The position numbers were made by a program, and so were the translations under genes. From an uncultured Candidatus Saccharibacteria bacterium (GTDB lineage Bacteria > Patescibacteriota > Minisyncoccia > Phycocordibacterales > UBA2100): DNA of 64,000 nucleotides. Shown in pieces: positions 54,640-61,292 of the stretch. The stretch covers positions 284,784 through 348,783 of the forward strand of contig CAZUVH010000001.1 of NCBI GenBank assembly GCA_964623775.1. The letters run 5' to 3'. Under the pieces are notes generated by a model that saw only the letters and a list, made by a program, of their open reading frames with translations, was not told the origin of the DNA and searched no databases. Position 1 is the first letter of the stretch. The number at the start of each line of letters is the position of its first letter.

Positions 54640-57471
54640 ATGAATTTGCGCAGGGTCGCGTTGATGGTACTTATATTGGCAGCCACTTCCTCTGCGACGC
54701 CCGCTTTCGCCTCCACTCTCCCCGACACCTGTGGCGCCTACGATAGTGGCCAATCGGGAGGCATCTTCGACCCGGCGGGGGATAGCACTGAATATTCTTC
54801 GGATGGGTATCTCATCTACCGTCTCCATCTCAAAAACCCCTCTGCCCCGGGCGATACTTTCAATCTTAGATTCCAATATTTTCTGGACACATGCAGAGAT
54901 GTCACGCTCTTTGCAAGCGGACCGCTCGTCACTTTGCCAGCAGGCGTCAGCGACGTCAGTATTCGCTTCACGTCGAGAACAGAGTACGGTATCTGGGACG
55001 ACACACACGAGACGCTTCTTAATCAGGTCTCGATCGAATCGTACCCCGCGTATATCAGCATCAGACCCACCCTCATCGCTTCGCCGACCTCGTTCTACAT
55101 CGGCCACACGCACAAAATCTATCGTGATGGCGTGCCCCCGATTGTCGAGAGTGCCGTGGAGAAGCCTGCCGCTTGTCCGCCACTCCAGGTACAGACGGAT
55201 GGCCTGTGGTTTGACCATGGATACGAACGTGCCGAATACGTGGACGGCCTCTTGCGCGTCCACTTGCGCTTCCTCGACAGAGTAGTCCCTGCCGACAATT
55301 TCCCACGTTTCAACTTCCGGCAAGGCGTTGTACCGGTGACGAACGAAGATTGCACATTCAGTGCGCCACTCAATTCTTTGCCTTCAATCATCGCTCCGTA
55401 TCACAGCTGGTACTATTCGTACCGTTTTATCGATGCGACGCACTGGGTAATGTGGGACGATGAGAGAAACGTGCCGTTCTCAGACGTGTCGGGACTCTGC
55501 AATAGCTGCTCCGGCACCATTCCCGAAGGTACGAAGTACGTCTACTGGCTCGGCGACCGCAACGGCCGCTTCATGCGCACCACCCCATTCCCGCCGGTGG
55601 AACCGACGACGAGAATTGACCCCGTCATCATGATTCCCGGTATTTTGGGGTCAGATTATAACGAGAACGGGGAATTAGTTATGGACCCGATCTTGCACAA
55701 ATACGATGATCTGATCGCGACGTTGGATGCCAATGTTTACACTCAAGGCACGGACCTCTTCACGTTCCCATACAATTGGCGCTTATCGAATATGCATACG
55801 GCACTGCTGCTTAAGGCGAAGATCGATGAGGTTAAGGCGATTTGCCAGTGCGATAAAGTCGATCTCGTCGCGCACTCGATGGGCGGTCTCGTTGCACGAC
55901 AGTACATTCAATCGAGTAGCTATGAAAACGATGTTGATCAGCTAATCTTCCTCGGAACGCCTCACCGTGGTGCGCCCAACTCTTATTTAATGTGGGAAGG
56001 TGGTGAGGTCGAAGCTGGCTTAAGGGATAGGGCGATGGAGCACATTTTGGGACAAGAGGCGCATGAACAAGGTTATGACGATCTGTTTGATTATGTGCGA
56101 AATGAGCCGATTACCTCAGTTCGCGAACTTTTACCTGTCTATGATTACGTTTTCGATAACGGAGACTTGCGTGACTACCCGGAAAATTATCCGACCAACC
56201 CATTTCTCGAAAACCTCAACGCCAACGTAAACGAGCTTCTTGGTTCAGGAGTTTCGATCAGCAATATTGTCGGAGAAAATGGGAGTAACGAGACAATAAT
56301 CGGCATTAATGCAACAAACGGTATGCAGTATTTGCCAATGTGGGAGCATGGCTACCCGGAGAATTTTTATCTTAATTTTGGAGATCATGGATTAGTGCGC
56401 GGTCAAGGTGACGGAACCGTTCCATTCGCAAGTGCCACGTTCGTTGCAGAAAATGTTTCAACGACCACATTCGAGCACACCGCAATACCTGAAGAGGCTC
56501 AGGCAGAGATTTACGAAATCCTTACGGGTGAATCGGCTACGACACTCGTCGACAACTGGAACCTAGTAAACGCCAAACTACTCTTCTTTAAAATGTTTTC
56601 TCCAGCGGATTTTTATGTCATGGCGCCGGATGGCAAGAAGGTCGGAAAAAATGTGCCCGAATCAGAAAAGATCCCTGGTTCATTCTATAGCGGATTCACC
56701 TCTGGCCCGGAATATGTCACGATTCTCAACCCGCTCGATGGAGAGTACAAAATCGTGACGGAAGGCACAGGCAGCGGATCATATACAGTCGAAGCAGCAC
56801 TCCTGAGTGATGAGGAGGTCGTCGAATCTTCGTTTACGGGCAACACCACCTCTGGTTTACTCACGGAGCTCAATGTCGTTCTTGATAGTAATAATCCGAA
56901 CGAGATCGAGGTCACGCCGACCGACACAGAGTCGCCGATCATAAACATCGTATCTCCTGAGGAACGAGACTACGAGCGCTCGCTGCAGCTGGCAGTTAAC
57001 ATATCAGCACAAGACTCGTCAGGCGTATTTGCGCTCGAAACCATACTTGGCACTACGACGATTCCGAACATCGGAGTCGTTGATCTCTTTTTTCTCAAAC
57101 TCGGGACGCACACACTGGCCGTATCTTCCTCCGATAACGTCGGCAATGCGACGACATCAAATCGCACATTCAAAATCATCGCAACGGCGAGCAGTACGCT
57201 TTCGGACATTGATCGTACGTATGCTCTCGGATGGATGACGGAAAAAATTCACAAAACTGTCAGTAAGAAGTTCAAAGCCATAACCAAAATTTCAAAAAAA
57301 GTCGAGAGACGAACTGACGGAAGACCGAATGGAGAGAAGCTACAGATGGTGGTTGATAAGATCCTTGCGCACGCTATGCTTAATGAGCTGCAGAGATACC
57401 GAAGCAGGGGACTCAGTGAGCAGGCTTACCAATTATTAAGAGAGGATATTCTGTGGCTCATTAATAACTAA
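54640..57471 (+). CDS. large secreted alpha/beta-hydrolase (lipase class 2 / LCAT/PGAP1-like esterase domain) with extended N- and C-terminal regions
   Basis: It has a signal peptide (MNLRRVALMVLILAATSSATPAFA). The central lipase-like core is PVIMIPGILGSDYN…FTFPYNWRLS…VDLVAHSMGGLVARQYI…IFLGTPHRGAP (nucleophile elbow GHSMGG type). The start at 54640 is preferred over 54601. Confidence 0.65.
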   Translation: MNLRRVALMVLILAATSSATPAFASTLPDTCGAYDSGQSGGIFDPAGDSTEYSSDGYLIYRLHLKNPSAPGDTFNLRFQYFLDTCRDVTLFASGPLVTLPAGVSDVSIRFTSRTEYGIWDDTHETLLNQVSIESYPAYISIRPTLIASPTSFYIGHTHKIYRDGVPPIVESAVEKPAACPPLQVQTDGLWFDHGYERAEYVDGLLRVHLRFLDRVVPADNFPRFNFRQGVVPVTNEDCTFSAPLNSLPSIIAPYHSWYYSYRFIDATHWVMWDDERNVPFSDVSGLCNSCSGTIPEGTKYVYWLGDRNGRFMRTTPFPPVEPTTRIDPVIMIPGILGSDYNENGELVMDPILHKYDDLIATLDANVYTQGTDLFTFPYNWRLSNMHTALLLKAKIDEVKAICQCDKVDLVAHSMGGLVARQYIQSSSYENDVDQLIFLGTPHRGAPNSYLMWEGGEVEAGLRDRAMEHILGQEAHEQGYDDLFDYVRNEPITSVRELLPVYDYVFDNGDLRDYPENYPTNPFLENLNANVNELLGSGVSISNIVGENGSNETIIGINATNGMQYLPMWEHGYPENFYLNFGDHGLVRGQGDGTVPFASATFVAENVSTTTFEHTAIPEEAQAEIYEILTGESATTLVDNWNLVNAKLLFFKMFSPADFYVMAPDGKKVGKNVPESEKIPGSFYSGFTSGPEYVTILNPLDGEYKIVTEGTGSGSYTVEAALLSDEEVVESSFTGNTTSGLLTELNVVLDSNNPNEIEVTPTDTESPIINIVSPEERDYERSLQLAVNISAQDSSGVFALETILGTTTIPNIGVVDLFFLKLGTHTLAVSSSDNVGNATTSNRTFKIIATASSTLSDIDRTYALGWMTEKIHKTVSKKFKAITKISKKVERRTDGRPNGEKLQMVVDKILAHAMLNELQRYRSRGLSEQAYQLLREDILWLINN

Positions 57472-57482
57472 AGTTTATTACG

Positions 57483-57869
57483 ATGATTCTAAAAATTGCA
57501 AAAAACATCGTTCTGATAGTGATTGCGGCAGTCGCAGGCCACTTTCTCGCAGTTCCGTTCGGAGCCGCATTATCACAAATACTCTCTATCGGAGGCTCAT
57601 ATGGCGGCGATGTTCTAGAGTATTACATGTTTGGCGTTTGCATTTCCCTTACATTTTTTATCTGTCTTCTCTTTTCGACATTTGGCGACAAATATAAATT
57701 CTGGTGGACAGGTGTCGCGCTGCTACCAGTCTTGTGGCTTGAAATGCAGTTGGCAGCAATCTTAATAATTTTCTCAGCGATTTTTGGGGGTATTGGTTGG
57801 TGGCTCGGCAGATTGTTAAGCGGTTATCTGACAAAGGTTGCGCCATCGTTCATGACGAAACTTTCTTGA
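57483..57869 (+). CDS. small hypothetical membrane protein (3–4 TM)
   Basis: The 128-aa ORF is hydrophobic (IVLIVIAAVAGHFLAVPFGAAL…CISLTFFICLLFSTF…LLPVLWLEMQLAAILIIFSAIFGGIGWWLGRLL). Confidence 0.45.
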   Translation: MILKIAKNIVLIVIAAVAGHFLAVPFGAALSQILSIGGSYGGDVLEYYMFGVCISLTFFICLLFSTFGDKYKFWWTGVALLPVLWLEMQLAAILIIFSAIFGGIGWWLGRLLSGYLTKVAPSFMTKLS

Positions 57870-57981
57870 TACATCCGGGGCCAGGATACTGGGAGACGTT
57901 GCGTTCAGGACGAAAAGAACTATAATCACTGATGTGAGTGCCACACAATACGTGTGAACGTGTAGCACAAAGAAAGTCACC

Positions 57982-58015
57982 AAAAAAGCACCATCCGAAA
58001 GGAAGGTGCTTTTTG
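57982..58015. terminator. bidirectional Rho-independent terminator (A-tract / stem with GNRA loop / T-tract)
   Basis: The sequence is aaaaaagcaccatcc-GAAA-ggaaggtgcttttt. The stem halves are agcacc(a)tcc and gga(a)ggtgct. Confidence 0.7.
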
Positions 58016-58026
58016 GTTGTATATGC

Positions 58027-58237
58027 AGGGCACACTGCGGAGGACGGGGTGAATTACGACTATAAAGGAGTAATTCACGGCCGCAGCGAGAAGGCGAGCG
58101 AGGCGGGGTCGCGCAATTTTTCAGCAGAAAAATATGCGTGACCGAGCAGCTCGCGCACGTACGATTCAGGGCACACTGCGGAGGACGGGTGCGAGCTCCA
58201 AAGTGAAAGTCGATGTGAGTGCCGCCGCCCTCCGCAG
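58027..58237. repeat. two direct copies of GGGCACACTGCGGAGGACGG(G)TG (58027, 58168) plus one inverted partial copy (58222–58235); additional hairpin GAATTAC…GTAATTC (58051–58076)
   Basis: The repeats are verified in the sequence. The second copy and the inverted copy can form a 14/15-bp stem with a ~33-nt loop. Confidence 0.75.
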
Positions 58238-58512
58238 TAAGTCCTGAATACTGCATTCAGAGTAGCATCACCATTTACACGCACAAGTGTGGCTGTGATT
58301 AAGAAAAATTTTCGAGCAAAATAAAGTTTCAAAAAACATTCTGAAAATTTTCTCGAAAAAATATTTTATATAAAAGTTATCCACACAAAAAAATATTTTT
58401 CACTCGTAAACATCACATGAGTGCAATAATTAATAAAACGCTCTTCGCATCATAAATGTGCGAGTGCGGGTCGAGCTTAGCACTCCAAGTAAAAGTGATC
58501 ACTGAAAATACT

Positions 58513-58560
58513 ATGGCAAAGAAGAAGAAGGCAAAGGCGAAGAAAAAGAAGCGCCTCTAA
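58513..58560 (+). CDS. 15-codon lysine-rich mini-ORF (MAKKKKAKAKKKKRL), speculative
   Basis: ATG is at 58513 and TAA at 58558–58560. A strong terminator follows immediately. There is no obvious Shine-Dalgarno sequence. Confidence 0.2.
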   Translation: MAKKKKAKAKKKKRL

Positions 58561-58566
58561 TCTCCT

Positions 58567-58600
58567 GAAGATCCCTCCAACCGGAGGGATCTTCTTTTAT
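58567..58600 (+). terminator. Rho-independent terminator (12-bp GC-rich stem, AACC loop, T-tract)
   Basis: The sequence is gaagatccctcc-aacc-ggagggatcttc-ttttat. Confidence 0.75.
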
Positions 58601-58712
58601 ATCGATGTGAATTGATGTAAATCTTATGATTTCAGAACTCCTCGGTCCGGCAACTTAAAAGAACACATTCCTTTATGTTGCACTCACCCTACGTCGCCTG
58701 TAGGATAACCCA

Positions 58713-61292
58713 ATGGCATTTTGGAGGCGTTTTATAGGTGATGAAAATACGGCCGCGCTTAAGCGTGCTGAGCCGATTGTGGCAAAGGTTAACGCCCTTG
58801 AGGACTCCATAAAGGCACTTTCCGACCTGGAGCTCAGGGATAAAACGACCGAGTTTAAGAACCGTTTTGCGGCTGGCGAGTCGCTTGATGATATGGCACC
58901 CGAAGCCTTTGCGGTTGTCCGAGAAGCCTCGCGGCGCACGCTCGGCCAGCGGCACTTCGATGTGCAGCTCATCGGAGGCATGATCCTGCACAATGGCGAT
59001 ATCGCCGAGATGCGCACCGGAGAAGGCAAGACGCTCGTCGCGACACTCCCTGCATATTTGAATGCACTGACCGGTAAGGGCGTCCACATTGTCACCGTCA
59101 ACGACTACCTGTCGAGGCGCGATGGGGTTTGGATGGGGCAGATATATGATGCGCTCGGCCTTTCTGTTGGCATCATCAACCACGAAGCGTCGTTCCTCTA
59201 CGATCCCTCATTACGCAAGAATCCGGACGACACAGTGGCTGACGACGCCATACGCGATGAGACAGGAAGCTTCAAAGTCGTGCACGAATTCATGCGCCCC
59301 TGCACGAGGCATGAAGCGTATGCCGCCGATATTACATACGGGACCAACAACGAATTCGGCTTTGATTACTTGCGCGACAATTTGGAATACGAGCCCGAGC
59401 GCCTGAGGCAGCGTGTGCCTGATAAGGGAGGCTATCATTTTGCGATCGTAGACGAGATCGACTCCATATTGATCGACGAGGCGCGCACGCCGCTCATTAT
59501 CTCGGCTCCGATCTCTGATGCCGAGTCGCTCTACGGGCGTTTTGCCGAGATCGCGGCAAGCCTATCTCGGGACGAGGATTACGTGGTCGACGAGAAACAT
59601 CGCTCAATCGCACTCACTGATAGCGGTATCGAGAAGGCGCAGGCCAAACTCGGCATCGACAATATATATACGGATGCAGGCATCAAGTACGTGCATCATC
59701 TCGAGACCGCTGTCCGCGCCAAGGCGCTCTACCATCGCGACAAAGACTACGTGATCAATGGCGGGGAAGTCGTTATTGTCGACGAGCTCACCGGCAGAAT
59801 GCAGCCGGGCAGACGTTGGGCCGAGGGTTTGCACCAAGCGATAGAGGCGAAAGAGGGTGTCTCGGTTCAGCAAGAATCGCGTACATTTGCCTCAATTACG
59901 TTCCAAAATTACTTCCGTCTCTACGATAAATTGGCCGGCATGACGGGCACCGCCATCACCTCGTCGGAGGAGTTCTACAAGGTATACGGGCTGAATACTG
60001 TCGTTGTACCGACCAATAAAAAGACTGAGCGAAAGGATTCTGAAGACCTCATCTTTCAGACAGAGTCAGGCAAGATGAAGGCAATCGCAAAGCGCGTGAA
60101 AGAGCTGCACGACAGAGGGCAGCCGGTGCTCATCGGCACCGCATCAGTCGAAAAGAACGAGCTCCTCTCGGTCTACTTCAAGCAGGAGGGGATACCGCAC
60201 GAGATTTTGAATGCAAAGAACCACGAGCGCGAGGGCGAGATCATTGCGCAGGCAGGAAGAAAGGGTGGCGTGACAGTCGCCACCAACATGGCTGGTCGCG
60301 GCGTCGACATCAAGCTTGGCGGGAATCCGGCGACTCCTGAAGAGTACGAGGAGGTCAAGACACGCGGCGGTCTTTTCGTACTCGGTACCGAAAGACATGA
60401 GGCGCGCCGTATCGACAACCAGTTGCGCGGTCGCGCTGGTCGTCAGGGCGATCCTGGCGAGACTCAATTTTACGTGTCACTCGAGGACTCGCTCATGCGT
60501 GTATTTGCGTCCGATGTAATCAAGCGTGTGATGGGCACTTTCAAGATCCCAGAAGATGAGCCGATCTACAATTCCATGATCACGCGTGCACTTGAAAAGG
60601 CGCAGACGCGCATCGAGGAGATCAATTTCGACTCGCGAAAACACGTACTTTCGTACGATGACGTTTTGAATATTCAAAGGCAGAGCATTTATGCCCGTCG
60701 CCGCACTCTTTTGATCGGAGGCGCTGCTGCAGTCGACGAGGAGCTCGCGCGTATTGCCGAAGCGGAGACCGTCCAGTTTGAAGTGAACGCTGAGGGCGAG
60801 CAGGTTGAGGTAAAGACAGAAGCATTCTCTACGGTTATCGAAAGAAAGAAAGGAGAGTTTGGCGAATCATTCCACATGGCAGTACGCCGGTTCCTTCTCC
60901 AGACCATCGATTATCTCTGGGTGGAAAATCTCGAAGCAATGGAATACTTACGCTCGAGCGTAAATCTGCGGGCATACGGACAGCGTGATCCACTTGTCGA
61001 ATACAAGAAAGAGGGCCTGAGACTCTTCCGGGGCATGGAGGATACGTACACGGCTCATGTCAAAAACATACTGCCCAATATCACGCCGCAGGGGGCACCG
61101 GTCGCCCGCGAGAGCCAAGTTATCCACAAAGCGGCAGCGGCTATTACATCGAATTCTGGCAACGCACCGAAGACCGAGTATGGTAGAAACGATCACGTTG
61201 TCATCACGAATGGAGTCGAGCGGAAGGAAATGAAATACAAAAAAGCGGAGCCCCTCTTGGCGAGCGGAGAGTGGAAGATAGTCCGAGAATAA
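58713..61292 (+). CDS. secA: preprotein translocase ATPase SecA
   Basis: The sequence is …MRTGEGKTLVATLPAYLNALTGKGVHIVTVNDYL…MTGTA…NMAGRGVDIKLGG. The 859-aa protein has no C-terminal CxxC zinc finger. Confidence 0.95.
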   Translation: MAFWRRFIGDENTAALKRAEPIVAKVNALEDSIKALSDLELRDKTTEFKNRFAAGESLDDMAPEAFAVVREASRRTLGQRHFDVQLIGGMILHNGDIAEMRTGEGKTLVATLPAYLNALTGKGVHIVTVNDYLSRRDGVWMGQIYDALGLSVGIINHEASFLYDPSLRKNPDDTVADDAIRDETGSFKVVHEFMRPCTRHEAYAADITYGTNNEFGFDYLRDNLEYEPERLRQRVPDKGGYHFAIVDEIDSILIDEARTPLIISAPISDAESLYGRFAEIAASLSRDEDYVVDEKHRSIALTDSGIEKAQAKLGIDNIYTDAGIKYVHHLETAVRAKALYHRDKDYVINGGEVVIVDELTGRMQPGRRWAEGLHQAIEAKEGVSVQQESRTFASITFQNYFRLYDKLAGMTGTAITSSEEFYKVYGLNTVVVPTNKKTERKDSEDLIFQTESGKMKAIAKRVKELHDRGQPVLIGTASVEKNELLSVYFKQEGIPHEILNAKNHEREGEIIAQAGRKGGVTVATNMAGRGVDIKLGGNPATPEEYEEVKTRGGLFVLGTERHEARRIDNQLRGRAGRQGDPGETQFYVSLEDSLMRVFASDVIKRVMGTFKIPEDEPIYNSMITRALEKAQTRIEEINFDSRKHVLSYDDVLNIQRQSIYARRRTLLIGGAAAVDEELARIAEAETVQFEVNAEGEQVEVKTEAFSTVIERKKGEFGESFHMAVRRFLLQTIDYLWVENLEAMEYLRSSVNLRAYGQRDPLVEYKKEGLRLFRGMEDTYTAHVKNILPNITPQGAPVARESQVIHKAAAAITSNSGNAPKTEYGRNDHVVITNGVERKEMKYKKAEPLLASGEWKIVRE

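What the first reader, a model, noticed from the sequence alone, without database searches (positions are those of the whole stretch)
57870..58712. ~840-bp structured non-coding region between the island and secA: GNRA-loop bidirectional terminator, repeated 20-mer with inverted partner, multiple hairpins
No ORF ≥60 aa lies in this region.

A textbook bidirectional terminator is present at 57982–58015 (aaaaaagcaccatccGAAAggaaggtgcttttt).

The motif GGGCACACTGCGGAGGACGG occurs twice in direct orientation, at 58027 and 58168. An inverted near-copy, CCGCCCTCCGCAGT, lies at 58222. The second direct copy and the inverted copy can pair into a long stem.

Further palindromes are present (GAATTAC…GTAATTC, CTGAAT…ATTCAG). 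GATGTGAGTGCC occurs twice.

This could be a small structured RNA (riboswitch-like or sRNA), a set of protein-binding sites regulating secA or the island, or the scar of a mobile element.
Basis: seen in the sequence. Interest (0 to 1): 0.55.

Follow-up and report, generated by a model that had tools for sequence, protein, structure and literature searches.

The report
Paired small RNA genes beside secA
The "structured non-coding region" is a cluster of small genes conserved across a class of ultra-small (CPR) bacteria: two small RNAs that evolve to stay complementary to each other, plus a tiny lysine-rich protein gene, none matching a described family.

Summary
The repeats, hairpins and terminators are real. 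The claim "no ORF of 60 aa or more" is mechanically wrong.

The window comes from a Candidatus Kaiserbacteria (Paceibacteria, CPR) genome. The region holds three small transcription units and the secA promoter.

1. RNA-1 lies on the MINUS strand (~58252→58164). It occurs in about 65 related species, with 16 of 29 pairs compensatory and an almost invariant apical domain. In the window it lacks its own U-tail and runs about 271 nt to the shared terminator.

2. sRNA-2 lies on the plus strand (~57933-58015). It has a near-consensus promoter, a 5' seed GUGAGUGCC, a hairpin, a linker box GAAAGUC and the "bidirectional" terminator.

3. A conserved micro-ORF (MAKKKKAKAKKKKRL) has its own promoter and terminator.

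The two sRNA-2 boxes are exact complements of two boxes in the RNA-1 loop, and the second box co-varies between the two genes across species. This explains "GATGTGAGTGCC occurs twice".

There is no Rfam hit, no phage link and no paper. The function is unknown. The most likely reading is a trans-acting sRNA with a dedicated antisense partner.

The parts
57899..57926 (+). Promoter of sRNA-2: -35 TTGCGT (57899-57904), 16-nt spacer, -10 TATAAT (57921-57926).
   Evidence: Read directly from the sequence. The same layout (TTGCnn, 16-17 nt, TAnAAT/TAnACT, then GUGAGUGC 5-7 nt later) is found in about 46 relatives.
57933..58015 (+). sRNA-2, a predicted ~83-nt small RNA. It has a single-stranded 5' seed GUGAGUGCC (57934-57942), hairpin H1 (57940-45 with 57961-66), linker box 2 GAAAGUC (57972-57978) and an intrinsic terminator.
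   Evidence: Alignment A2 of 39 species: 85% of cells are paired versus 39-48% when the partners are slid, and 11 of 15 pairs show changes on both sides. The ends are inferred from the promoter and terminator, not measured.
57978..58019 (.). Shared bidirectional intrinsic terminator. The stem is GCACCAUCC-GAAA-GGAAGGUGC with one mismatch. An A6 run lies on the left and a T5 run on the right, which read as T6 on the minus strand. It ends both sRNA-2 (+) and the extended RNA-1 (-).
   Evidence: (I3). The simple scanner flagged it only on the + strand, in a shifted register.
58020..58163 (-). Lineage-specific 3' extension of RNA-1. It contains two stable hairpins (58049-58079 and about 58094-58150) and ends in a second copy of the RNA-1 3' arm (58048->58023, 25/26 identical to 58189->58164).
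   Evidence: Hairpin 1 has no U-run after it in the window, so transcription should continue to the terminator at 58015->57982. The interior has no homologue in 82 related loci. A duplicated 3' arm 126-227 nt downstream recurs in 14 of 55 loci and tracks each species' own arm.
58164..58252 (-). RNA-1, a conserved ~89-nt hairpin RNA. The 5' arm is 58250->58225 and the 3' arm is 58189->58164. The invariant apical domain is 58224->58190. It contains box 1' GGCACUCAC (58223->58215) and box 2' GACUUUC (58211->58205), followed by UUUGGAGCUCGCACCC.
   Evidence: blastn gives 88-98% nucleotide identity in relatives whose SecA is only 61-76% identical. Alifold on 53 sequences finds 29 pairs, 16 of them with compensatory changes. 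Roughly 150 cells are G.U on this strand versus roughly 20 that are A.C (my tally of the pair types). The covariance model scores 94.6 bits on minus versus 30.9 on plus, with a single copy in the window; the model was built in the minus orientation, so the contrast is partly built in.
58259..58286 (-). Promoter of RNA-1: -35 TTGTGC (58286->58281), 16-nt spacer, extended -10 TGcTACTCT (58267->58259). The predicted start is about 58252.
   Evidence: TGnTAnnnT lies just upstream of the hairpin in 42 of 55 loci.
58290..58430 (+). AT-rich (18-33% GC) control region of the micro-ORF unit. A perfect DnaA-box sequence TTATCCACA lies at 58377-58385, and the extended -10 TGCAATAAT at 58422-58430 starts exactly 45 nt after the start of that box.
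   Evidence: The 44-46-nt spacing (start to start) is conserved in about 45 loci. GC skew does not switch here, so this is not oriC.
58436..58598 (+). Micro-ORF transcript. It has a conserved leader (AACGC...GCGGGUCGA...AGCACUC), the ORF 58513-58560 encoding MAKKKKAKAKKKKRL, and a terminator at 58567-58594 followed by a U-run.
   Evidence: The ORF is conserved in about 50 loci (11-34 aa, MAKKKKAKKAKKRR-like), and the frame is kept despite length changes. It has no Pfam or NCBIfam match. The leader structure is not supported by covariation.
58678..58715 (+). secA's own promoter and leaderless start: -35 TTGCAC (58678-83), 17-nt spacer, -10 TAGGAT (58701-06), 6 nt, then ATG at 58713.
   Evidence: TAGGAT lies 5-7 nt before the ATG in most relatives.

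Best explanation
The region is a conserved cluster of independent small genes, not one element.

**The two RNAs (shown by comparative sequence analysis).**
- RNA-1, on the minus strand, is a long hairpin with a nearly invariant ~40-nt apical domain.
- sRNA-2, on the plus strand, has the build of a classical trans-acting bacterial sRNA: a free 5' seed, a hairpin, a single-stranded linker, and a terminator with a U-tail.
- The two RNAs are made to pair with each other.
 - The sRNA-2 seed GUGAGUGCC is the exact complement of GGCACUCAC in the RNA-1 loop.
 - The sRNA-2 linker box GAAAGUC is the complement of GACUUUC a few bases further on.
 - The second contact changes in step in both genes across species.

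**How binding would work (inferred).**
- The free 5' seed nucleates on the 5' side of the RNA-1 apical domain.
- This opens the weak internal CUC/GAG helix, and the linker box then zips onto the loop.
- The loop becomes sequestered, and the invariant 3' strand UUUGGAGCUCGCAC is released.

**Roles (inferred).**
- The seed box never varies while the second box co-varies freely.
- I therefore read sRNA-2 as a seed-bearing regulator with other targets.
- I read RNA-1 as its dedicated high-affinity partner, either a decoy/sponge or the regulated effector RNA.

**What is specific to the window.**
- RNA-1 is inverted relative to most relatives.
- It is convergent with sRNA-2 and shares its terminator.
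- It carries a lineage-specific 3' extension ending in a second copy of its own 3' arm, which offers an alternative closing helix for the 5' arm.
For: **Taxon and conservation.**
- SecA relatives place the window in Kaiserbacteria/Paceibacteria.
- RNA-1 is 88-98% identical at the nucleotide level in relatives whose SecA is only 61-76% identical.

**RNA-1 structure and strand.**
- 16 of 29 pairs have compensatory changes.
- G.U pairs dominate on the minus-strand reading: GU in 40 sequences at columns 27/77, 32 at 11/93, and UG in 24 at 16/88.
- An extended -10 lies upstream in 42 of 55 loci, and a U-run follows the hairpin in at least 30 of 55.
- The covariance model scores 94.6 bits on minus versus 30.9 on plus. 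The model was built in the minus orientation.
- The model also detects RNA-1 in more distant genomes.

**sRNA-2.**
- A promoter, the 5' box, a hairpin, box 2 and a terminator are present in about 46 species.
- Its structure is supported: 85% of cells paired versus 39-48% when slid.

**Intermolecular covariation.**
- There are 24 distinct RNA-1/sRNA-2 box-2 combinations.
- 166 of 168 cells are paired at positions x1-x7.
- Changes on both sides occur at 6 positions.
- Examples (RNA-1 / sRNA-2): GACUUUCA/UGAAAGUC, GAUUUUCG/CGAAAAUC, GACAUUUG/CGAAUGUC, GAUAUUCG/CGAAUAUC, GUUUUUCA/UGAAAAAC, GAUUUUUG/CAAAAAUC, GAACAU/AUGUUC, GACUUUAU/AUAAAGUC.
- The closest relatives with DNA (SecA 83% and 81% identical) show a further double change to GAUUUUC/GAAAAUC.
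- At the edges of box 1, variation is mostly wobble-compatible (U.G, G.U), and two species have C-G changed to A-U.

**Independent units.**
- Tandem, convergent and divergent arrangements of the two genes all occur.

**Duplex energies in the window.**
- Box 1 is -18.4 kcal/mol and box 2 is -9.8 kcal/mol.

**Duplicated 3' arm.**
- It occurs in 14 of 55 loci.
- The outer 14 nt match the species' own arm at 12.4/14 versus 7.8/14 for other species' arms.
Against: - There are no expression data. The transcript ends are inferred from promoter and terminator motifs only.
- The core of box 1 never varies, so its pairing is not itself proven by covariation.
- The two contacts are "crossed": the 5' box pairs with the 5' box. 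With linkers as short as 9-12 nt in some species, they may not be able to form on one RNA-1 molecule at the same time in a simple coaxial geometry.
- RNA-1 positions that do not pair with sRNA-2 are also invariant. This implies another ligand that is unidentified.
- The only candidate mRNA target is a 7-nt seed match, GCACUCA, in the micro-ORF leader. It is short and only partly conserved.
- The alternative fold that uses the distal arm is about 15 kcal/mol worse than the local hairpin.
- The interior of the extension has no homologue, so it could be a neutral duplication remnant.
Confidence: 0.6

Rival explanations
1. The two RNAs are two halves of one obligate housekeeping ribonucleoprotein. 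This would be a bipartite RNA, assembled through the two boxes in the way U4/U6 or two-piece tmRNA assemble, rather than a regulator and its target.
For: - In the fetched loci I found no clear case of sRNA-2 without RNA-1. About 51 loci carry both, and about 10 show RNA-1 only within the stretch held. The two genes are usually adjacent.
- Both have strong, constitutive-looking promoters.
- RNA-1 has invariant positions beyond the pairing boxes, and box 1 is invariant on both sides. This suggests sequence-specific recognition of the complex.
- The pair is conserved across several candidate lineages of Paceibacteria (Kaiser-, Nomura-, Wolfebacteria).
Against: - No known bipartite RNA matches, and there is no Rfam hit.
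- No associated protein gene was identified.
- sRNA-2 has the canonical look of a regulatory sRNA.
- The internal hairpins and extensions are highly variable, and lineage-specific add-ons (RNA-1b modules) are unusual for a core RNP.
Confidence: 0.2
2. The direct repeat specifically (the distal 26-mer at 58023-48) is a functionless remnant. It would be left by a tandem duplication or by site-specific integration into the 3' end of the RNA-1 gene, as with att duplications at tRNA or tmRNA genes.
For: - The repeat is a copy of the 3' part of an RNA gene, which is the geometry of att duplications.
- The interior (58049-58163) has no homologue in 82 related loci.
- The alternative fold is energetically disfavoured.
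- In several relatives the second copy belongs to a complete paralogous hairpin (RNA-1b). This points to tandem gene duplication.
Against: - Only 115 nt lie between the copies. There is no integrase and no phage match.
- The window's RNA-1 lacks its own U-tail, so the extension must be transcribed.
- The same architecture recurs in 14 of 55 species, with the distal copy kept matched to each species' own arm. The differences are mostly transitions that keep pairing.
Confidence: 0.25
3. RNA-1 is a non-canonical version of a universal hairpin RNA, either SRP (4.5S) RNA given the secA neighbourhood, or a 6S-like RNA.
For: It is a ~90-nt hairpin with a highly conserved apical domain containing internal loops. 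It appears to be single-copy and sits next to secA in most species.
Against: - There is no match to the SRP or 6S models even at E<=10.
- The universal GNAR tetraloop and AGCA motif of SRP domain IV are absent by inspection of alignment A1.
- It is too short and lacks the central bubble of 6S RNA.
- The apical loop is built to pair with another RNA.
Confidence: 0.05
4. The features act at the DNA level, as operator or recombinase sites or as a cruciform, or act as a cis leader or riboswitch controlling secA or the upstream genes.
For: - Inverted and direct repeats lie in an intergenic region.
- A perfect DnaA box is nearby.
- The motif (A/G)TGAGTGC also overlaps the micro-ORF -10 region.
Against: - G.U versus A.C asymmetry and compensatory changes argue for RNA.
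- Each block is framed by a promoter and a terminator.
- Box-2 covariation between two separate genes is not explained by protein binding.
- The orientation of RNA-1 relative to secA flips among species, and secA is leaderless with its own promoter.
- There is no GC-skew switch.
Confidence: 0.05

Closest known systems
Trans-acting base-pairing sRNAs with dedicated decoy or sponge RNAs. Enterobacterial examples, from my own knowledge: GcvB-SroC, ChiX-chbBC spacer, RyhB/RybB-3'ETS(leuZ).
   Same: - One RNA has the build 5' seed, hairpin, linker and Rho-independent terminator.
- A second, separately made RNA carries a perfect seed-complement and can titrate it.
- The seed is more conserved than the auxiliary contacts.
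   Different: - Both partners here are stand-alone genes with their own promoters.
- They are conserved together across several candidate lineages of Paceibacteria.
- The contact is two-site with a crossed topology.
- No Hfq or ProQ context is known for CPR (from my own knowledge).
- No mRNA target is established.
Antisense-RNA control pairs that start with loop contacts (CopA/CopT of plasmid R1, RNAI/RNAII of ColE1, Sok/hok), from my own knowledge.
   Same: A structured hairpin loop is recognised by a complementary RNA. Binding would proceed stepwise, with nucleation followed by extension that opens an internal helix.
   Different: - Those pairs are cis-encoded, overlapping on opposite strands, and are fully complementary.
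- Here the genes are separate and only 7-11 plus 7-15 nt pair.
- The pair is chromosomal, with no replication or toxin gene attached.
SRP (4.5S) RNA, Rfam RF00169/RF01854.
   Same: Size, a long-hairpin shape, a conserved apical domain with internal loops, and a neighbourhood of secretion genes.
   Different: - No covariance-model match.
- It lacks the GNAR tetraloop and the conserved symmetric and asymmetric loop sequences.
- It has a ~20-nt loop complementary to another sRNA.
Duplication of the 3' end of tRNA, tmRNA or small-RNA genes by integrating elements (attL/attR).
   Same: A direct repeat (26 nt) of the 3' portion of an RNA gene lies downstream of the gene.
   Different: - The 'insert' is only about 115 nt, with no integrase.
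- The arrangement recurs with different, partly structured inserts in 14 of 55 species.
- In several species the second copy is part of a complete paralogous hairpin.
Intrinsic (Rho-independent) bidirectional terminators between convergent genes.
   Same: 57978-58019 is a GC-rich hairpin flanked by an A-run and a T-run, placed between two convergent units.
   Different: Nothing unusual, except that both converging units are small RNAs.

Membership tests
Any Rfam 15 family | Covariance-model match at or near the family's gathering score. | tested here: not met
   - The window gave no match at gathering thresholds.
- 57000-59500 at E<=10 gave only terminator-driven or miRNA noise, 14-25 bits against thresholds of 44-110.
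- Six relatives that carry RNA-1, sRNA-2 and the RNA-1b module gave nothing relevant at E<=1.
Bacterial SRP RNA | Domain IV: a GNAR tetraloop closed by a short helix, plus a conserved symmetric loop (…AGCA…) and an asymmetric loop. | tested here: not met
   - No RF00169 or RF01854 hit.
- The invariant apical sequence GGCGGCACUCACAUAAGACUUUCACUUUGGAGCUCGCACCC contains none of these motifs.
- The canonical motif GGAAGGAAGCAGC is absent from all 80 fetched loci. This says nothing about the rest of those genomes.
6S RNA | A ~180-nt rod with a large central bubble that mimics an open promoter. | tested here: not met
   The core RNA-1 is about 90 nt, with 22 bp of near-continuous stem and an apical domain. 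There is no 6S model hit.
Riboswitch or cis-acting leader | Lies in the 5' UTR of the regulated gene, on the same strand, in all members. | tested here: not met
   - RNA-1 is antisense to secA in the window and in 14 of 55 relatives.
- It is followed by terminators.
- secA has its own promoter and a leaderless start.
Trans-acting bacterial sRNA gene | Its own promoter and intrinsic terminator framing a 50-300-nt unit with no conserved ORF. | tested here: met
   - sRNA-2: -35, -10 and terminator are conserved in about 46 species.
- RNA-1: an extended -10 in 42 of 55 loci, and a U-run or downstream terminator.
- Loop indels are not in multiples of three.
Trans-acting bacterial sRNA gene | A detectable discrete transcript. 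| not testable with these tools
   No expression data are available here.
sRNA-RNA pairing partners | Complementarity maintained by compensatory changes in both genes. | tested here: met
   - Box 2: 24 distinct combinations, 166 of 168 core cells paired, and double changes at 6 positions.
- A further double change occurs in the closest relatives.
- The core of box 1 is invariant, so it is untestable. Its edges are mostly wobble-compatible, with two compensatory cases.
Repetitive or mobile element (REP, MITE, IS end) | Multiple dispersed copies in the genome, and presence in unrelated contexts. | tested here: not met
   - The 20-mer occurs only at this locus in the window.
- The covariance model finds a single copy.
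- Viral and metagenome scans gave only chance matches in unrelated DNA.
- Only 64 kb of the genome could be searched.
Integrase att duplication at an RNA gene | Repeats flank an inserted element that carries, or once carried, an integrase or foreign genes. | tested here: not met
   The copies are separated by 115 nt of hairpin-forming sequence with no coding capacity.
Intrinsic terminator | A GC-rich stem-loop followed by a U-run on the transcribed strand. | tested here: met
   57978-58019 has U-runs on both strands. 58567-58594 has 12 bp followed by TTTT.
Type I toxin-antitoxin | A small hydrophobic toxin ORF whose mRNA pairs with an adjacent sRNA. | tested here: not met
   The only small ORF encodes a highly basic, non-hydrophobic peptide, MAKKKKAKAKKKKRL. 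The strong complementarity is between the two RNAs, not with the ORF mRNA.
Chromosomal origin (oriC) | A cluster of DnaA boxes, an AT-rich unwinding element and a GC-skew switch. | tested here: not met
   There is a single perfect box in the intergenic region. Window-wide counts equal chance, 10 observed versus 11.9 expected. Cumulative GC skew rises almost steadily across the window with no switch at this locus.

The most novel reading that the evidence does not exclude
RNA-1 and sRNA-2 form an obligate two-RNA complex that is a previously unrecognised core ribonucleoprotein of Paceibacteria. The family-wide duplication of the RNA-1 3' strand (RNA-1b modules and distal arm copies) would mean that this strand, GGAGCUCGCACCCGUCCUCCGC, is the functional product released when sRNA-2 opens the hairpin. 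That would be an RNA-triggered RNA switch with no described bacterial counterpart.
Probability: 0.15. Interest if true: 0.85.

Novelty: new variant of a known kind. Interest (0 to 1): 0.64.

Why it matters
To my knowledge, almost nothing is known about regulatory or structural small RNAs in the Candidate Phyla Radiation, a large and mostly uncultured part of bacterial diversity with tiny genomes and few known regulators.

This locus yields two sRNA families that are new relative to Rfam, each with a clear promoter and terminator. They are conserved across several candidate lineages of Paceibacteria. Their interaction is supported by covariation between two separate genes, which is rare evidence obtainable without any culture.

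It also flags three further points:
- a conserved lysine-rich micro-protein gene that gene callers miss;
- a conserved DnaA-box-bearing promoter;
- a spurious 146-aa "hypothetical protein" call laid over the RNAs in public annotation.

The alignments can be turned directly into covariance models for annotating CPR genomes and for targeted metatranscriptome checks.

Tried and rejected
**Database and motif searches**
- Rfam at gathering and at permissive thresholds, on the window and on six relatives: nothing.
- tRNA/tmRNA scan: none.
- SRP domain-IV motif in the fetched loci: none, which is uninformative about whole genomes.

**Mobile-element and relatives searches**
- Phage or att hypothesis: the viral-contig scan with TGGAGCTCGCACCCG gave 27 hits, all unrelated coding DNA.
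- Closer relatives through SecA homologues: the two 88%-identical ones have no retrievable DNA. The 83% and 81% ones lack the window-type extension.

**Hypotheses rejected**
- oriC: rejected on GC skew and DnaA-box counts.
- The micro-ORF as a SecM-like leader of secA: rejected because a terminator and a separate leaderless secA promoter intervene.
- The GCACTCAC just upstream of secA as an sRNA-2 target: it is the -35 region and is not conserved.

**Other tests**
- Other GCACTCAC sites in the window lie inside coding regions.
- A target search for the complement of the RNA-1 3' strand in the window found only the locus itself.
- A conserved structure in the micro-ORF leader was not supported.
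- Pfam and NCBIfam for the micro-protein: nothing.
- Literature searches by topic and by exact sequence strings: nothing relevant.
- A whole-set cognate versus non-cognate duplex comparison discriminated poorly, because most species share one loop type and the boxes are A/U-rich. The column-wise table was used instead.
Full report
**Observation**

- The 20-mer GGGCACACTGCGGAGGACGG occurs exactly twice in 64 kb, at 58028 and 58169. No shuffle gave a match.
- The repeat extends to 26 nt (58023-48 and 58164-89, 25/26 identical). Its inverted partner lies at 58225-58250.
- GATGTGAGTGCC is at 57931 and 58212.
- The hairpin with a GAAA loop at 57978-58019 is flanked by A- and T-runs.
- A second strong terminator lies at 58567-94.
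- 58016-58262 folds much better than shuffles on either strand, z = -7.1 and -8.3.
- Two independent public assemblies contain the identical sequence, so the repeats are not an assembly artefact.

One statement is wrong: mechanical ORFs of 146, 61, 67 and 85 aa overlap the region. One public gene call even annotates the 146-aa ORF. Nothing supports them as genes (see below).

**Provenance and relatives**

SecA (58713-61292) finds relatives only in Candidatus Kaiserbacteria and other Paceibacteria (Patescibacteria/CPR), with at best 76% identity among species representatives. I fetched 80 loci around their secA genes. Two closer ones (SecA 83% and 81% identical) were added through protein homologues.

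**RNA-1: the hairpin made of 20-mer copy 2 and the inverted partner**

- *Conservation.* blastn of the finding against the loci shows that 58170-58245 is 88-98% identical at the nucleotide level in about 55 species. This is far more conserved than the neighbouring protein gene. It appears in either orientation relative to secA.
- *Structure.* A 53-sequence alignment folds into one long hairpin of 29 pairs. Sixteen of these have compensatory double changes, mostly in the basal stem. The ~40-nt apical domain GGCGGCACUCACAUAAGACUUUCACUUUGGAGCUCGCACCC is almost invariant.
- *Strand.* The transcribed strand is the window's minus strand, on four lines of evidence.
  - Roughly 150 cells are G.U pairs on that strand, for example 40 sequences at columns 27/77. 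Only about 20 are A.C (my tally of the pair types).
  - An extended -10 box TGnTAnnnT lies just upstream in that orientation in 42 of 55 loci.
  - A U-run follows the hairpin in at least 30 of 55 loci.
  - A covariance model built from the alignment scores 94.6 bits on minus and 30.9 on plus, though it was built in the minus orientation.
- *Copy number and range.* The model finds one copy in the window. It also recovers RNA-1 in more distant genomes that blastn had missed.
- *Coding.* Loop indels of 1-5 nt rule out a coding reading.
- *Window coordinates.* -35 TTGTGC 58286->58281; TGcTACTCT 58267->58259; start about 58252; hairpin to 58164.

**The direct repeat**

In many relatives RNA-1 ends in its own U-tail. 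In the window the hairpin is followed by CCCUGAAUCGUACG with no U-run. Transcription should therefore continue through 58163->58020 to the terminator at 58015->57982, giving a transcript of about 271 nt.

The same architecture recurs in 14 of 55 loci: a hairpin, 126-227 nt of other sequence, then a second copy of the 3' arm and a terminator.
- The species-specific outer 14 nt of the distal copy match the same genome's proximal arm at 12.4/14. They match other species' arms at only 7.8/14.
- The few differences are mostly transitions that keep or improve pairing with the 5' arm.
- In several relatives the extra module is a complete paralogous hairpin, which I call RNA-1b. It has its own 5' partner and a conserved apical part (GGGGGUCGGGGAAACUGUAGUUUCCCC...AAGAACCGAGAGGUUCUU) that also has no Rfam match.

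The interior of the window's extension has no homologue in any fetched locus. The fold that uses the distal arm is about 15 kcal/mol worse than the local hairpin. Whether the window's distal copy is functional or a duplication remnant stays open.

**sRNA-2: the second GATGTGAGTGCC**

On the plus strand the sequence reads, in order:
- TTGCGT (57899-904), a 16-nt spacer, TATAAT (57921-26) and 7 nt;
- GUGAGUGCC;
- a hairpin;
- GAAAGUC (57972-78);
- the terminator.

The same layout is present in about 46 relatives. On a 39-sequence alignment the hairpin and the terminator are supported. 85% of cells are paired versus 39-48% for slid partners, and 11 of 15 pairs show double changes.

The "bidirectional terminator" therefore closes two convergent small RNA genes in this genome. 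In most relatives the two genes are in tandem, and in some they are divergent. They are independent units.

**The two RNAs are complementary and co-evolve**

The 5' box of sRNA-2 (GUGAGUGCC) is the exact complement of GGCACUCAC in the RNA-1 loop. The linker box (GAAAGUC) is the complement of GACUUUC four bases further on. In many species the second contact extends to UUUGGAG/CUCCAAA.

Across species the second contact changes in both genes together.
- There are 24 distinct combinations.
- 166 of 168 cells are paired at seven core positions.
- Double changes occur at six positions.
- Examples (RNA-1/sRNA-2): GAUUUUCG/CGAAAAUC, GACAUUUG/CGAAUGUC, GAUAUUCG/CGAAUAUC, GUUUUUCA/UGAAAAAC, GAUUUUUG/CAAAAAUC, GAACAU/AUGUUC, GACUUUAU/AUAAAGUC.
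- The two closest relatives with DNA carry GAUUUUC/GAAAAUC against the window's GACUUUC/GAAAGUC.

The 7-bp core of box 1 never varies, so covariation cannot test it. Its edges mostly show wobble-compatible variation, and two species show C-G changed to A-U.

Predicted duplex energies in the window are -18.4 kcal/mol for box 1 and -9.8 kcal/mol for box 2.

**Mechanism**

*Shown by comparative analysis:*
- there are two independently framed small RNA genes;
- each has a conserved structure;
- complementarity between them is maintained by selection.

*Inferred:*
- sRNA-2 has the canonical build of a trans-acting sRNA, and its first six bases are unpaired.
- These bases would nucleate on the 5' side of the RNA-1 apical domain and open the weak CUC/GAG helix predicted there.
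- The linker box would then pair with the loop, sequestering it and freeing UUUGGAGCUCGCAC.
- An invariant seed combined with a freely co-varying private contact fits a regulator with further targets. RNA-1 would then be its dedicated partner, as a decoy or as the regulated effector.

*Caveats:*
- The contacts are crossed (5' box with 5' box), and some species have linkers of only 9-12 nt. Simultaneous binding on one molecule is therefore uncertain.
- RNA-1 has invariant positions that sRNA-2 does not touch, which implies another unknown ligand.
- No expression data exist.

The main rival is that the two RNAs form one obligate RNP.

**The rest of the region**

- *AT-rich stretch.* 58290-58430 is AT-rich (18-33% GC). 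It holds a perfect DnaA-box sequence, TTATCCACA (58377-85). The extended -10 TGCAATAAT starts exactly 45 nt after the start of that box, a spacing kept in about 45 loci. It is not oriC. This is the only perfect box in the intergenic region (a second perfect match lies inside secA), window-wide counts equal chance, and there is no skew switch at this locus.
- *Micro-ORF.* The unit encodes MAKKKKAKAKKKKRL (58513-58560), followed by the terminator at 58567-94. The ORF is conserved in about 50 loci as an 11-34-aa Lys/Ala/Arg-rich peptide whose frame survives length changes. It matches no Pfam or NCBIfam family.
- *Leader.* Its leader has invariant blocks (AACGC...GCGGGUCGA). A conserved structure could not be demonstrated.
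- *secA.* secA has its own promoter (TTGCAC, 17 nt, TAGGAT) ending 6 nt before a leaderless ATG, as in relatives. Neither the micro-ORF nor the RNAs act as a cis leader of secA.

**Comparison with known families**

- No Rfam 15 family matches the window or six relatives, even at permissive thresholds. There is no tRNA or tmRNA.
- SRP RNA is the tempting analogue because of its size, hairpin shape, conserved apex and the secA neighbourhood. Its defining domain-IV motifs are absent, and the apex here is built to pair with another RNA.
- 6S RNA, riboswitch, REP/MITE, att duplication, type I toxin-antitoxin and oriC each fail a defining feature (see the membership table).
- Viral and metagenome scans gave only chance matches.
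- Searches of the paper library by topic and by exact sequence found nothing.
- What it works like is an sRNA with a dedicated antisense or decoy partner. It is not a member of any described family.

**Verdict**

The finding is real and more interesting than a generic "structured spacer". It is a conserved three-gene cluster of small genes in CPR bacteria. The cluster contains a pair of small RNAs, new relative to Rfam, whose interaction is supported by intermolecular covariation.

The function is unknown. The window-specific direct repeat is one instance of a recurrent 3'-arm duplication in this RNA family.

Noticed in passing
window 58513-58560 (+), with relatives in about 50 loci: There is a conserved micro-ORF encoding MAKKKKAKAKKKKRL. 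Relatives encode MAKKKKAKKAKKRR-like peptides of 11-34 aa. It has its own promoter, a ~80-nt conserved leader and a terminator. It matches no Pfam or NCBIfam family and is too short for normal gene calling. It could be a ribosome- or RNA-associated micro-protein.
   Followed up: partly
window 58377-58385 and 58422-58430: A perfect DnaA-box sequence, TTATCCACA, starts exactly 44-46 nt before the start of the extended -10 (TGyAATAAT) of the micro-ORF promoter in about 45 species. This places the box at about -60 to -52. It suggests a DnaA-dependent or similarly regulated promoter. It is not an origin, because there is no GC-skew switch.
   Followed up: partly
window 58678-58715; relatives just upstream of secA (for example L001 3980-4003): secA appears to be leaderless. 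A -10 TAGGAT lies 5-7 nt before the ATG in most Kaiserbacteria loci, and neither secA nor the micro-ORF has a Shine-Dalgarno sequence.
   Followed up: partly
L003 ~2600-2780, L006, L013, L015, L022, L043, L048, L112 1895-2040: "RNA-1b" is a second long hairpin directly downstream of RNA-1 in several species. It shares the RNA-1 3' strand but has a different, conserved and co-varying apical part (GGGGGUCGGGGAAACUGUAGUUUCCCC ... AAGAACCGAGAGGUUCUU). It has no Rfam match. Its 5' strand, GCGAGCUCCAAAGU, is complementary to the invariant ACUUUGGAGCUCGC of RNA-1.
   Followed up: partly
window 57816-58256 (-); L113 604-1044: A 146-aa ORF is called as a protein gene in a public (Logan) annotation of the identical contig. 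It runs antisense through sRNA-2 and the terminator and in sense through the RNA-1 extension and RNA-1. It is almost certainly a spurious call.
   Followed up: partly
window 5277, 26853, 30827(-), 59610: The 8-mer GCACTCAC, the complement of the sRNA-2 seed, occurs 7 times in the window against 1.45 expected; no shuffle out of 100 reached 7. Two copies belong to sRNA-2 and RNA-1 and one is the secA -35 region. The four sites listed here lie inside coding regions and are not near start codons.
   Followed up: partly
L112 ~2790-2990 (upstream of secA in a relative with 81% SecA identity): There are about three tandem copies of a ~57-nt unit (GGTCGCACCACAAGGGCACTTCCATTGTTTCTAAGGGCTAAAGCCCTAAGAAAAATT), each containing a small hairpin. 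They lie between a methyltransferase gene and secA.
   Followed up: no
L111 271-440 (relative with 83% SecA identity): A GC-rich, hairpin-dense ~170-nt stretch lies between sRNA-2 and RNA-1. It ends in a terminator-like GGGGTTTTGCGTTTTT and may be a further small RNA in that lineage.
   Followed up: no
L111 4106-4777: A Y1_Tnp (IS200/IS605-type transposase) gene lies between secA and gatB in one relative. It has no counterpart in the window.
   Followed up: no
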